Below, piece by piece: positions 6,556 to 62,911 of a DNA stretch of 64,000 nt. Under the pieces are notes generated by a model. That model had not been told where the DNA came from. It searched no databases and was given only the letters and a program-made list of their open reading frames with translations. The translations under genes and the position numbers were made by a program. This DNA comes from Mustelus asterias (Eukaryota): assembly GCF_964213995.1 (NCBI RefSeq), contig NW_027590172.1, positions 1 through 64,000 on the forward strand. The letters are read 5' to 3'. Each line of letters starts with the position of its first letter. Within the stretch, counting starts at the first letter, position 1.

Positions 6556-7392
6556 TCACAACTTGTGAATTCGCTGGTGCGTCAGAAGATTCGATGAGGT
6601 AACGTATCCCTTCCCACACTGCAAGCAGGTGAATGGCCTCTCCCCAGTGTGAACCCGCTGATGTATTGCTAGTTTAGACGTCTGATTGAATCCCTTCTCA
6701 CACACAGAGCAGATGAATGGCCTCTCTGTGTGGATTCGCTGGTGTATTGCTCGGTTGGATGAGTGATTGAATCCTTTCCCACACACAGAGCAGATGAATG
6801 GTTTCTCCCCAGTGTGAACTCGCTGGTGTGTCAGCAGAGTTGATGACCGACTGAATCCTTTCCCACACACAGAGCAGGTGAATGGCCTCTCCCCAGTGTG
6901 AATTCGCTGGTGTGTGAACAAGGTGGCTGACTGAGCAAATCCCTTTCCACACTGGGAACAGGTGAATGGCCTCTCCCCAGTGTGAACTCGCTGGTGTTTC
7001 AACAAAGTAGATGAGTCAGCAAATCCCTTCCCACACTGGGAGCAAGTGAATGGCCTCTCCTGAGTGTGAGTTCGCTGGTGTATCAGCAGAGTGGATGAGT
7101 GAGAAAATCTCTTCCCACATTCAGAGCAGGTGAACGGTTTCACCCCAGTGTGAACACGCTGGTGTATTGCTAGGTTTGATGACTGATTGAATCCCTTCCC
7201 ACATTGGGAGCAGGTAAACGGCCTCTCCTCAGCATGAGTCCTCTGGTGTATATGTAAGCTGGATAACTGAGTGAATCCCTTCCCACACTGAGAGCAGGTG
7301 AATGGCCTCTCCCCAGTGTGACTGCGTCGATGAGTTTCCAGCAGGGATGGGTAATTGAATTCCTTCCCACAATCCTCACACTTCCATGCCAT
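6556..7392 (-). CDS. C2H2 zinc-finger protein, 10 fingers, no effector domain
   Basis: Intact 278-aa ORF of CxxC-x12-HxxxH repeats with TGERP linkers. Putative splice acceptor TTTCACAG at about 7617. Confidence 0.88.
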
Positions 7393-8869
7393 CTCCCTGT
7401 TGTGACTGCAATTATGTTTCCAAAGGCCAGATGATTGGTTGAAGTCTTATCCACAAACAGAACACATGTACAGTTTCTCTCCACTGTGAACGGTGCTTTT
7501 TTCTTCCAATTTCAAAATACAATGATATTCAGGTTACAGTAAATTGGCCGACTCATCAGATTCTGATATCATGTTTTGTTTCAGTTTCTCAACTGCAAAT
7601 CTTCTTCTTGTAAACCCTGTGAAATTGATTTAAAACAGAAAAAAGTGAGTGAGAAAGAACCCACAAAAACACAAAGGTGGGTTGTGGAATTGAGCTGAAT
7701 GCATCTGCTAATTTGTGGGGCCGCGGTGAGGAAAGGGTAACCAAGAAAGCTGCTGGATTGTCATACAAACCCAGCTGGTTCACTGATATCCTTCAGGGAA
7801 TGAAACCTGCCAGAAGGTCTGGGTCTACACAAGACTTTGGGAGGAGATAGAGAGAAGTAGGAGTGGCCGGGGTGAAGGCAAGGGATTTTATACATCTACA
7901 ACTTGACAAGAACTTTGACAGAATCTCACAAACCCTCAACTCCACCAACTCGAAGGACCAAGATAGCAGATGGATATAAACACCATCACCTCCGAGTTCC
8001 TCCAACCCACACACCATCCTGACTTATCTGACTTCCAGTACTAAACGAACAGAAATTTATTTCATATAAATACTGGGAAGACTGAACCCACTGTCTTCAG
8101 TCCCCTCTCCAAACTCCACTCCCTCGCCAACAACTCTATCCCTCTTCCTGGCAACATGTCTGACCTGAACCAGGCTGTTCACAATCCTGGTGAAATATTT
8201 CACCCAAAGATGAGCTTCCAGCCACATATCCAGATCATCATCACTATTTCCATCTCAGTGACATCGCCCGACTCCACCCCAGTCTCAGCTCATCTGGAAT
8301 TCTCATCCATTCCATTGTGATGTGAAACTCAGGGGAATGGGAATATAGAGGGGGAATGGGACTGGCTGAATTGCTCCAAAGAGGGTTGGCATGGATTTGA
8401 GTTGCCAAATGGATTCCTTCTATGTTGTAATGTCTCCATCAGTGGAAATAGGTAACGTTGACACAGTGCCTTTTATATATCAAGACAAGAAATAGGGAAT
8501 CATAAATAACATAGCACGTACCATATAACTACATTAAACATATCTCTGTCCCAAGCGAATTTACTGTTCATTTAAACTGCCTTCTCCTGGGAAAACTCCC
8601 CCTTTAATTGTGAACATTAGGTAAGAGGCTATCCTATTAGCCAGATAAATAGGTGCGACATCCTGAGGGAGTCAAAAGATGTCAATATCTTTGAGAGAGA
8701 AAGAAAAATATACCTGGGTCTCGTCCTGCTCCTAATGCCCGATGTTCGTCTGTAATAGTTCCAGTCTGCAGCCTCCCTAAATTCACTTCCTCTCCCTTCA
8801 GTTGCTGCAAGTGCCCAATTTCCCCCAGAATGAGAAAAGAAATGGAAAGGGGGAAACATTGATTTCCTC

Positions 8870-9480
8870 CCAGATGTTGTCCAGAGGAGGAAGTTTCACT
8901 CTGAAAATCATCAACAAACTTTTGCATTGTGACGTCAATGGAGGCCTGCCTATATCAGCCAATAGGAATCAGTCTGCACCGCAGTGACATCCTCGGGTTC
9001 CAGTGCGCAGGCCTGGGCGCGCGGACACGGGAGTCCCGCCCCCACCCCACCGATTGTTCCCCCTCCCTCTGCACCTCCTCGAGCCAAGGTTTCCGGGCAA
9101 CCGGCTGGCGGCTCCGGCCAGAGCGAGAAGCCGCTCGGTGATCTCCCCCTCCCCCCTCTCTCTCCGGCGGCTGCTGCTCCAAAAAGAGATCGAGAGCGAC
9201 CGCTGGCGGCAGCCGCACTGCGCCTGCTCCGGACAGCTCGGCTCAGCAGCGCTCTCTGCGCCTGCGTGCTGGGCTGCCAGCTGAGGGAGTGGGGGAGGGG
9301 ACTTTGCAAAATCTCTTCCCATCATTTTCTTCCAAGTCCCGCAGTTTGATTTGAAACAGAACAGCTTCTGTTTGTAGCTTCACCACAGACTCCAACTTCA
9401 CACACAGACTCAAACTTCACACACAGACTAAAACTTCACCACAGACTCAAACTTCATCCTCTGGACAACATCTGTGAGGA
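8870..9480. promoter_or_regulatory. Putative bidirectional CpG-island promoter
   Basis: CpG-rich; CRE TGACGTCA 8930-8937, CCAAT 8959-8963, GC box about 9035, NRF1-like TGCGCCTGC. Lies between divergent ZNF ORFs. Confidence 0.7.
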
Positions 9481-10316
9481 AAACACTTTCTTTTTCCCCC
9501 TGGGAATTACAGAGAGTTGTGGGACTCTGGAACTGGAATTAGAGCTAAATATACTGAGGGGGAAATGTTTGTGATTTTGTGGAACCTGTTTTTATTGTCT
9601 GAGCTTTTTAAAGTGTAATTTATCTTGTGCATTCAAATAATGTTTCTTTGCATGATTTAGTGATGCTGGTTTTAAATTGATTTGTAAAGTATTTTTTAAA
9701 ATGTGAAACCTTGTCCTTCAGTATTCCATTGGAACTTTCTGAAATTTGTTTACTTTTTAGATTAGTCACAACAGAGATATATCTTGTGTTCATATATTTG
9801 GTATATTTATGTTTCGGTAATAAGATTCATTGTTTTATTCTTGTAATACAGCATGTCGTTACGTTATATAGTTCCAGTCAAAGAGACATTACAATTCAGA
9901 AAGATTGCTTTTAAAATCTGGAGTAAATATAGTTTTCTCAAATCTCCTTCCTATCACCTCTCTAATTAAGAAATGCGGCACTGTATACCACATGTTTTTA
10001 GTCCAGTTATATTCAAAATTATCTGTTCTGAATTTCTATCCAGTACTGACGGTGATGACTTTTATCAATTCCTTTTACAGGATAATGGAGGGGAGGATTG
10101 ACAGATTGAAATCTCAAAGGAAACATCAAGTGAAGAATTAACAGAATTGTTCGATTATTGGGACCAGGATATCATCGGCATTTGAGTCCAGGAGAAATGT
10201 TTCTCTCTTCTATCTGCTTCAAAAGATTTTAAACATTGGTGTAACACACACACACACACACACACACCAACCGCAACTGATCAGCAAACCTGGAGAGATA
10301 CAAGGACACTGGCACC

Positions 10317-60773: not shown

Positions 60774-61120
60774 GAGATAGAAACTCATTCTTGGAGGTGG
60801 CAGAGATAAATGGTCAGAAACTCAGCTGGCAGCTCTGAAGAAGAGTTATAGGGACTCAGAACATTAACTCTGTTTCTTTCTCCACAGATGCTGCCAGACC
60901 TGCTGAGTTTATGCAGCATCTTCTGTTTTTATTTCAGTTTTTGCTTTTATTTTAGTGAAATGATTTTCCATGGTTGCAAACAGTCTGGTTCAGCCTCAGA
61001 CTGTTGTCAGGGAGAGGGATGGAGTCAGTGGGTATGGAGTAGAGTTTGTAGTCGGGTCTTCATCTTCTCACTATTTAAATAGAGGAAATTTTTGTTAATC
61101 CAGTGCTGGATGTCAGACAA

Positions 61121-61466
61121 GGGCGGCACGGTAGCACAGTGGTTAGCACTGCTGCTTCACAGCTCCAGGGACCTGGGTTCAATTCCCGGCTTGGGTCACT
61201 GTCTGTGTGGAGTTTGCACATTCTCCTTGTGTCTGTGTGGGTTTCCTCCGGGTGCTCCGGTTTCCTCCCACAGTCCAAAGATGTGTGGGTTAGGTTGATT
61301 GGCCATGCTAAAATTGCCCCTTAGTGTCCTGAGATGCATAGATTCGAGGGATTAGCAGGTAAATATGTAGGGATATGGGGGCAGGGCCTGGGTGGGATTG
61401 TGGTCGGTGCAGACTCGATGGGCCAAATGGCCTCTTTCTGCACTGTAGGGATTCTGTGATTTCTGT
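61121..61466 (+). mobile_element. HE1-like SINE
   Basis: Full family sequence with A/B boxes. Confidence 0.9.
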
Positions 61467-61958
61467 GAAGTCAGGATGGTGTGTGACCTGAATGGGAACT
61501 TGGAGTTGCTGCTGTTCACATACACTTGCTACCCTATCTCTTTGAGGTGCCAGAGGCTGAGATTGGGGAAATTCTCTCAAGGTTCTGGCAGAGTTTTAGA
61601 CATATACAATCCATCACCTTCACTCATTCTGCTCCCAGTTCTCTGTCTCTCTTCTCTCGAGATCCAGACTATGTGAAAGGATATTAGTGAATCAGTTGGT
61701 TTTTTTATAACAATTTAGCAGCTTTCATGATCACATTTTCCTTGTGCCGGCCCCAAAAATGACCAGATTCATTCAACTCCATTTCACAACCTGCCTTTGT
61801 GTTTTTGTGGGTTCTCTCTCACTCCCTTTTTTCTGTTTTGAATCAATTTCACAGAGTATTGGAAAGGTTCGCAGGCAGGAAAGTCAAACCAATCACCACA
61901 TCACAATCTGCCAGAGTCATTCGATTCATCAGGACTTGAATATCATCGGCCTTTGAAA

Positions 61959-62911
61959 ATGGAAGCAAAAAGCACCGCTCACGCCAGGGAGAAACCATGG
62001 AAATGTGGGGAATGTAGGAGGGGATTCAGATCCCCGTCTGAGCTGGAAACTCATCGACGCAGACACACCGGGGAGAGACCATTCATCTGCTCCAATTGTG
62101 GGAAGCGATTCATTCAATTAATTTGCCTTCAGAGACACCAGCGACTTCACACCGGGGAGAGGCCGTTCACCTGTTGTGTGTGTGGGAAAGGATTCACTCT
62201 CTCATCCCACCTGCTGAAACACCGGCAGGTTCACGAAGACAAGAGAGAGTTTCAATGCTCCGACTGTGAGAAGAGCTTTAAAAACCCACACGCACTGAGG
62301 GAGCACCAGCGCATTCACACTGGGTACACACCGTTCAGCTGCTCACTGTGTGGGAAGAGGTTCAGGACATCTCCCCACCTTCAGACACACCAACGAGTTC
62401 ACACTGACAAGAGACCTTTCAAATGTCCAGAGTGTGAGAAGTATTTCAAAGGTTCTGGGGATCTGCAGTACCATCAATGTGTTCACACTGAGGAGAGACC
62501 GTTCAAGTGCTCTCACTGCAGTACTGGGTTCAGGCGATCATCTCACCTCACTGTACACCAGCGCACTCACACTGGGGAGAAGCCGTTCATCTGCTCCAAG
62601 TGTGGGAAGGGATTCAGTCAGTCCTCCAACCTGCTGACGCATCAACAAATTCACACTGAGGTGAGGCCATTCACCTGTTCTAAGTGTGGAAAGGGATTCG
62701 CACGATCATCCCATCTGCTGACTCACCACGCATTCACACTGGGGAGAGGCCGTTCACCTGCTCCGAGTGCGGGAAGAGATTTACCGAATCATCTGCGCTG
62801 CTGACACACCAGCGAGTTCACACTGGGGAGAAACCCTTCACTTGCTCCATGTGTAGGAAGAGATTTAATCGATCATCCAACTTGGTGAAACACCAGAGAG
62901 TTCACTATTGA
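61959..62911 (+). CDS. C2H2 zinc-finger protein, 11 fingers, with a 1-bp frameshift in finger 9 (about 62729)
   Basis: ORF 61953-62804 has 8 intact fingers. CACCACGCATT lacks the G of CACCAGCGCATT. ORF 62684-62911 carries the last 2 fingers. Acceptor at 61854. Confidence 0.75.

What the first reader, a model, noticed from the sequence alone, without database searches (positions are those of the whole stretch)
6556..62070. KRAB-less ZNF family with an invariant atypical first finger: candidate built-in effector module
Seen: all eight readable arrays begin with the same finger type: [23 protein letters not shown] (7392), [23 protein letters not shown] (10317), [23 protein letters not shown] (19232), [23 protein letters not shown] (29648), [23 protein letters not shown] (36376), [23 protein letters not shown] (45527), [23 protein letters not shown] (57464), [23 protein letters not shown] (61959). 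W-K before the first Cys, Pro at helix +1, Ser +2 and Glu +5 are invariant. This combination occurs in no internal finger, and the internal fingers vary freely at -1/+2/+3/+6. No KRAB, SCAN or BTB domain is visible. Known: tetrapod TE-silencing ZNFs need KRAB, and some C2H2 fingers mediate protein binding. Inference: finger 1 is a cofactor-docking module, which would make these 'finger-only' repressors a separate chondrichthyan solution to TE control.
Basis: partly seen in the sequence, partly recalled or inferred. Interest (0 to 1): 0.8.

Follow-up and report, generated by a model that had tools for sequence, protein, structure and literature searches.

The report
Shark zinc-finger family with cap finger
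A cluster of shark zinc-finger genes that lack the usual silencing domain all keep one distinctive, selectively conserved finger at the front, which may be a docking site for partner proteins, but nothing yet shows that it binds a partner or silences transposons.

Summary
Eight arrays open with a W-K-C…P-S-x-L-E finger (W and E+5: 8/8 against 0/73 other fingers). The finger occurs across sharks and rays: 52 slots in 36 of 41 proteins examined, first or second in 51. Corrections: the eight form one clade, not eight independent cases. The finger is ancestrally not first, since decayed fingers lie upstream and 11 relatives keep an upstream finger. At least three arrays are broken. Its −1/+3/+6 residues vary like those of the next fingers (pN/pS 1.10 against 1.00). 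The five signature codons show no amino-acid change at pS 0.60, but whole-finger extra constraint is borderline (bootstrap 7%). No KRAB, SCAN or BTB was found in 214 upstream frames, and seven of eight leaders carry in-frame stops, so those proteins probably start at the finger. Three ray models carry a PxVxL-like peptide upstream. Best reading: a selected cap finger with a non-base-reading job, probably a protein contact (0.45). Repression and transposon targets are unshown.

The parts
6556..7392 (-). g1: intact 10-finger ORF from a new ATG two codons before the cap finger (7318-7386)
7393..7616 (-). g1 leader after putative acceptor; relict upstream finger (7402-7470) and 2 in-frame stops
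10317..10925 (+). g2: 7-finger ORF, cap finger 10329-10397; putative acceptor, first exon base 10081, 6 in-frame stops in leader
18540..19232 (-). g4: 8 fingers then premature stop, broken tail to about 18271; cap finger 19152-19220
19233..19583 (-). g4 leader: relics of up to three upstream fingers, frameshifted, 6 in-frame stops
29367..29648 (-). g5: 3 fingers then frameshift (tail to about 28770); cap finger 29568-29636; putative acceptor 30005
36376..36966 (+). g6: intact 7-finger ORF, cap finger 36388-36456; putative acceptor 36027
44517..45527 (-). g7: intact 12-finger ORF, cap finger 45447-45515
45528..45868 (-). g7 leader with relict fingers (one at 45608-45676 still has four ligands, out of frame), 9 in-frame stops
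56793..57464 (-). g10: intact 8-finger ORF, cap finger 57387-57455; relict upstream finger and 1 in-frame stop in leader (putative acceptor 57686)
61959..62804 (+). g11: 8 fingers then frameshift (tail to 62911); cap finger 61998-62066; upstream finger deleted; only open leader (putative acceptor 61855, phase 1)
6470..6529 (-). broken cap-finger copy just 3' of g1 (Trp to stop, Pro+1 to Leu)
16627..16695 (-). broken cap-finger copy (Trp to stop, Cys to Trp, Glu+5 to Lys)
17522..18088 (-). 5'-truncated broken array; its 50-nt cap-finger remnant is identical to g1
48769..49470 (+). broken paralogue of g2 (89% over 1.9 kb), cap finger with deletions
53441..54310 (-). broken array with family acceptor and leader start; cap finger replaced by unrelated sequence
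8781..9265 (.). CpG-rich promoter-like block between divergent g1 and g2; paralogues near 32584-33080 and 46070-46652
   Evidence: promoter role inferred
58105..58570 (.). second CpG-rich promoter-like block between divergent g10 and g11; paralogue at 24242-24717
   Evidence: promoter role inferred

Best explanation
This is a tandem cluster of an elasmobranch-wide, fast-turnover poly-C2H2 gene family. The internal fingers read DNA (inferred from family knowledge). One ancestral finger near the array's 5' edge is a cap module that selection keeps for a job other than reading bases. Its fixed residues (Trp-Lys, loop Asp, Pro+1, Glu+5, Arg+8/+9) lie outside the -1/+3/+6 set, and most likely form a surface that contacts another protein (cofactor or partner ZNF). 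Fingers upstream of it were lost by at least three routes: a new ATG in the linker, a second new ATG two codons before Trp, and deletion of one finger unit. Shown: position, spread, constraint, upstream decay. Inferred: translation start, protein contact. Unshown: repression and transposon targets.
For: First or second in 51 of 52 slots in 36 proteins from sharks and rays. Signature codons pN 0 at pS 0.60, the same columns in the next two fingers pN/pS 0.89. In relatives E+5 50/52, P+1 48/52, D 47/52, K 47/52, W 45/52, whereas other fingers of 26 such proteins have entropy 1.7-2.9 bits at the K, D, +1 and +5 columns vs 0.4. dS among cap fingers 0.64, equal to internal 0.66, so invariance is not just recent copying. 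The relict upstream finger has pN/pS 0.74-0.77 vs 0.32 for the cap finger of the same genes. 2 of 4 broken copies have substitutions at signature positions. Helix -2..+6 is net acidic, -1.1 vs +0.76. 7 of 8 leaders have an in-frame stop 16-31 codons before Trp with no pyrimidine-rich AG after it, and all 8 ATGs have purine -3 and G +4.
Against: No binding, tethering or target data exist. Whole-finger pN/pS 0.36 vs 0.60 and 0.58 is borderline: 7% of codon bootstraps reach zero difference. Signature columns were chosen for being invariant, and relatives were found with cap-finger queries and a filter needing 2 of W/P/E, which inflates conservation. W is replaced in 7 of 52 and a zinc ligand in 4 of 52 slots, and further degenerate slots missed by the filter exist. 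Between g11 and its apparent Mustelus orthologue the cap finger (18/23) is no more conserved than the other seven (16-22/23). A second conserved finger class exists inside arrays (49 of 375 other fingers). That the fixed residues form one surface rests on recalled C2H2 geometry; no coordinates were inspected.
Confidence: 0.45

Rival explanations
1. Structural cap plus edge effect: the finger is an old terminal repeat shielded from array shuffling, with its own self-stabilising packing. Selection keeps the fold but there is no partner protein.
For: One clade. Mouse PRDM9 first-position repeats form a distinct class (PMC3890296 passages), and the ruminant PRDM9 first finger, which lies apart from the array, is conserved (PMC4874674 passages). 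Non-helix dN/dS is 0.18, within the 0.15-0.32 range of later fingers. The upstream finger is also stereotyped among relatives that keep it.
Against: The mouse PRDM9 first repeat lacks a zinc ligand, whereas this finger keeps four ligands in 48/52 slots. The other edge fingers (upstream relict; last finger of a run, identity 0.52 vs 0.69) are not held in this way. Upstream loss stopped at this finger by three routes.
Confidence: 0.27
2. The finger is a shared nucleic-acid anchor that reads a common base triplet or backbone feature in all family targets.
For: Canonical spacing and a predicted beta-beta-alpha fold (single-sequence model, mean pLDDT 67). Aromatic residue at -1 in 36/52 and Ser+2 in 44/52. 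Helix positions 1 and 5 can contribute to base recognition (PMC7293014 passage).
Against: Positions -1/+3/+6 have pN/pS 1.10 in the window; +3 switches among Glu, Gln, Lys and Leu; the helix is acidic.
Confidence: 0.15
3. The real effector is a short peptide on an upstream exon, as in KRAB- and FiNZ-ZNFs, and the cap finger is only an inherited marker. Window genes with closed leaders would be effector-less derivatives.
For: Models from Pristis, Mobula and Rhinoraja share an N-terminal peptide with a PxVxL-like word ahead of the family leader and cap finger (55-59% identity over about 60 residues, leader included). g11's leader is open in phase 1. FiNZ is only 28 residues on its own exon (PMC10547256 passage) and a new domain would escape Pfam.
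Against: 7 of 8 leaders are closed in frame and their lengths fall in all three phases. 7 slots in relatives begin the model at the same Met. The ray peptide has no counterpart in the window (best tblastn E 0.33 for P0380). The ray N-termini are gene-model predictions.
Confidence: 0.13

Closest known systems
ZNF146/OZF (human 'only zinc fingers')
   Same: Ten C2H2 fingers, no other identifiable domain, binds LINE-1 (PMC8896011 passages).
   Different: A single conserved gene, not an expanding family; no such cap finger appeared in the passages seen; its depletion did not broadly activate L1 in HEK293 cells.
KRAB-ZFPs of sarcopterygians
   Same: Clustered, birth-and-death tandem arrays in one exon behind an acceptor and leader; variable helix residues.
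   Different: No KRAB found. A passage in PMC11603059 reports only PRDM9 of this group in whale shark.
FiNZ-ZNFs of cyprinids
   Same: Lineage-specific KRAB-less expansion with a short family-defining N-terminal module; linked to TE repression by knockdown (PMC10547256).
   Different: FiNZ is a non-finger 28-residue peptide on its own exon; here the marker is itself a zinc finger inside the array exon.
PRDM9 first-position finger
   Same: A distinct repeat class confined to the first array position.
   Different: In mouse it lacks a zinc ligand; PRDM9 has KRAB and SET domains; here the finger is intact and shared by many paralogues.
Protein-binding C2H2-type fingers (BCL11A ZnF0, Ikaros C-terminal fingers, REST C-terminal finger; recalled, from no call)
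   Same: Precedent that a single terminal finger can be an oligomerisation or cofactor module.
   Different: No specific likeness found: sequence and fold searches of solved structures returned generic C2H2 arrays at the top.

Membership tests
Classical tandem C2H2 (Kruppel-type) ZNF | C-x2-C-x12-H-x3-H fingers at 28-residue period with TGE(K/R)P linkers | tested here: met
KRAB-ZFP | N-terminal KRAB domain on an upstream exon | tested here: not met
   0 KRAB hits in 214 upstream sense frames of 38 codons or more within the scanned ranges; 7 of 8 leaders closed in frame
KRAB-ZFP | TRIM28-dependent repression of bound TEs | not testable with these tools
   needs tethering and ChIP
SCAN- or BTB-ZNF | N-terminal SCAN or BTB domain | tested here: not met
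FiNZ-ZNF | 28-residue acidic FiNZ peptide on an upstream exon, cyprinid-specific | tested here: inconclusive
   No FiNZ profile was run; closed leaders and elasmobranch relatives argue against
OZF-like finger-only proteins | Protein consists only of fingers | tested here: inconclusive
   Genomic frames suggest so for 7 of 8 genes; no transcript evidence
OZF-like finger-only proteins | Binds transposable elements | not testable with these tools
   no genome held for target prediction; needs ChIP
Protein-docking finger | Binds a partner through non-DNA-reading residues | not testable with these tools
   only indirect constraint evidence

The most novel reading that the evidence does not exclude
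Sharks and rays, lacking KRAB-ZFPs, turned one zinc finger into the corepressor-docking module of a large finger-only family that tracks transposons. Upstream fingers, and possibly an older PxVxL-bearing exon still seen in ray models, were shed until the docking finger became the N-terminus.
Probability: 0.2. Interest if true: 0.8.

Novelty: new variant of a known kind. Interest (0 to 1): 0.48.

Why it matters
How vertebrates without KRAB/TRIM28 use their hundreds of tandem ZNF genes is open; even FiNZ's recruiting activity was unproven in the passage seen. A 23-residue finger that marks an elasmobranch family gives a handle to annotate the family and a cheap test (tether the finger, mutate W/P/E). 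If it docks a corepressor, it is an effector built from the DNA-binding fold itself. If not, it remains a useful family marker and a clear case of coding fingers decaying into 5' leader with new start codons arising in linkers.

Tried and rejected
No whole genome is held, so genome-wide counts and TE target prediction were not possible. Sequencing runs for 40000-48000: no RNA holder listed; no reads were laid, so splicing and expression are untested. A two-copy complex prediction of cap finger plus next finger gave no verdict (score 0.00, mark 0.32, alignment not used). Sequence and fold searches of solved structures gave generic C2H2 arrays. ESM Atlas: generic ZNF clusters for the finger; for the ray N-terminal peptide only scores of 0.80-0.82, including a KRAB cluster at chance level, not taken as evidence. 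The profile search of representatives ranked long arrays by finger number and added one new carrier (unnamed P0239) among its 150 rows. About 100 of the 116 hits were a conserved teleost-type gene; the 7 of them inspected lacked Trp and Pro. Pfam on upstream frames gave 3 hits of 214, none an effector domain (ALKBH8_N, RVT_1, one weak). Rfam: 0 matches. Earlier findings of the scan: none by words or sequence. Rejected: eight independent origins (one clade); conservation by recent copying alone (dS 0.64); a conserved coding leader (frames and phases differ).
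Full report
Observation. Of 81 fingers with four ligands in the window, Trp at the first aromatic position and Glu+5 occur in 8 of 8 slot fingers and 0 of 73 others, Pro+1 in 8 and 2, Lys in 8 and 6, Ser+2 in 8 and 54. 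The combination is unique, but Ser+2 is the family default. On a DNA tree of all 81 fingers the eight form one group (99/89; 69 columns only, many forks open), so the pattern is one inherited event.

Gene anatomy. Each array sits 143-369 nt behind a conserved acceptor-like site; splicing is inferred, no reads were laid. Between acceptor and finger lie decayed fingers: a colinear relict in g1, g4, g5, g6, g7 and g10, further relics in g4-g7, mostly deleted in g2. In g2, g4, g5, g6 and g7 an ATG in ACCATGG context stands in the linker; g1 and g10 share a different ATG two codons before Trp and have different stops upstream; g11 lacks the upstream finger unit. Seven of eight leaders have an in-frame stop 16-31 codons before Trp and no pyrimidine-rich AG after it; g11's leader is open (the g7 acceptor was entered 2 nt off, which does not alter the frame). 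Five ORFs end without nearby in-register relics in the test used (g1, g2, g6, g7, g10; 7-12 fingers), three are cut by a stop or frameshift (g4, g5, g11), and at least five more arrays or fragments are broken. Paralogous CpG-rich blocks lie between divergent pairs; a promoter role is inferred. Pfam finds no KRAB, SCAN or BTB in 4 of the 8 ORFs or in 214 upstream sense frames of 38 codons or more (3 unrelated hits). Shorter exons, exons beyond the scanned ranges and undescribed domains would be missed.

Spread. Three protein searches and one profile search gave carriers named from Pristiophorus, Heptranchias, Heterodontus, Chiloscyllium, Cetorhinus, Scyliorhinus, Mustelus, Amblyraja, Rhinoraja, Pristis and Mobula; no chimaera appeared. 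In 41 proteins examined (39 named sharks or rays, 2 unnamed) a filter needing two of W/P/E found 52 slots in 36 proteins: 40 with no linked finger upstream, 11 with one, 1 with three (a probably chimeric model). Many are fused multi-gene predictions. W 45, K 47, D 47, P 48, S 44, E 50 and four ligands 48 of 52. Some degenerate slots escaped the filter. Among 2036 fingers of the other hits, none had Trp with Pro+1 or Glu+5; 6 had Pro and Glu without Trp. So the finger is position-restricted and elasmobranch-wide, but often second, not first.

Constraint. Among the window's eight, dN/dS is 0.27 at dS 0.64, against 0.47 at dS 0.66 for 53 internal fingers. pN/pS is 0.36 against 0.60 and 0.58 for the next two fingers; 7% of codon bootstraps reach no difference. 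The five signature codons have pN 0 and pS 0.60 (chosen post hoc), while -1/+3/+6 have pN/pS 1.10, like the next two fingers (1.00). The relict upstream finger gives 0.74-0.77 against 0.32 for the cap finger of the same genes. Two of four broken copies changed signature residues, one is deleted there and one is truncated. Against extra constraint: non-helix dN/dS (0.18) lies within the range of later fingers (0.15-0.32); g11 and its apparent Mustelus orthologue P0150 match at 18/23 in the cap finger and 16-22/23 in the other seven, although g6 and P0006 match at 21/23 against 16-18; and a second stereotyped finger class makes up 49 of 375 other fingers.

Mechanism. Constraint sits away from the main base-reading positions, the helix is acidic (-1.1 against +0.76), and upstream loss stopped at this finger by three routes. 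I therefore read it as a cap with a non-base-reading job, most likely a protein contact (0.45). That Trp, Pro+1, Glu+5 and Arg+8 share one face is recalled geometry; the single-sequence model shows only a normal fold (mean pLDDT 67). Rivals: structural cap with edge effect (0.27), shared nucleic-acid anchor (0.15), spliced effector (0.13). The last gains from a new lead: models from three rays share an N-terminal peptide with a PxVxL-like word before the leader, with no counterpart in the window; PxVxL is an HP1-binding motif (PMC12526061, listing and abstract start). Nothing here shows repression or transposon binding.

Literature. Passages only were read from PMC10547256 (0 occurrences of shark, chondrichth or cartilaginous in the main text), PMC8896011, PMC3890296, PMC4874674, PMC11603059 and PMC7293014. 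Supplements were not read; those of PMC10547256 list ZNF counts per species and may include sharks. Searches aimed at shark ZNF families and at atypical first fingers listed no title or abstract describing this finger; the library lacks most subscription papers. Finger-only TE-binding proteins (ZNF146/OZF), KRAB-less lineage expansions (FiNZ) and distinct first repeats (PRDM9) are known, so the concept has precedents, while this marker appears undescribed in what was searched.

Verdict. Real, elasmobranch-wide and under selection; a new variant of a known kind. The effector reading is a reasonable, cheaply testable hypothesis, not a result: about 0.2 for the full transposon-repressor version. 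Interest 0.48.

Noticed in passing
P0380, P0381, P0211 (ray gene models), N-terminal 20-40 residues: A conserved peptide with a PxVxL-like word precedes the family leader, a degenerate but open upstream finger and the cap finger in Pristis, Mobula and Rhinoraja models; possible HP1-binding exon absent from the window.
   Followed up: partly
window 15590-15945 and about 12 further copies, e.g. 28421-28753, 60444-60775, 61126-61461: A repeat of about 340 bp with a tRNA-like head (ARAGORN 15590-15671), probably a tRNA-derived SINE; 77-94% identity between copies. The shark SINE name HE1 is recalled, not tested.
   Followed up: partly
window 44535-45503 (-), 62250-62570 (+), 5907-5976 (-): A second stereotyped finger class (Lys at -2, often acidic +3) recurs inside arrays, with a 252-nt three-finger period in g7; 49 of 375 other fingers in relatives.
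   Followed up: partly
window 18039-18088 (-) vs 7318-7367 (-): The cap-finger remnant of a truncated array is 100% identical to g1 over 50 nt while the arrays are about 78% alike, suggesting gene conversion or a chimeric duplication.
   Followed up: no
window 8781-9265, 32584-33080, 46070-46652; 24242-24717, 58105-58570: Two families of CpG-rich blocks between divergent gene pairs, with GC-box, CCAAT-like and CRE-like words (motif names recalled); likely duplicated bidirectional promoters.
   Followed up: partly
window 61959-62804 (+) vs P0150: g11 is finger-for-finger colinear with a Mustelus model over 8 fingers, an apparently stable orthologue inside a fast-turnover cluster.
   Followed up: partly
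window 816-2853: G-rich low-complexity tract with two N gaps (2189-2364, 2715-2853); likely an assembly weak spot.
   Followed up: no
window 35037-35237 (+) and nearby: Weak reverse-transcriptase hit; LINE fragments are interspersed among the genes.
   Followed up: no
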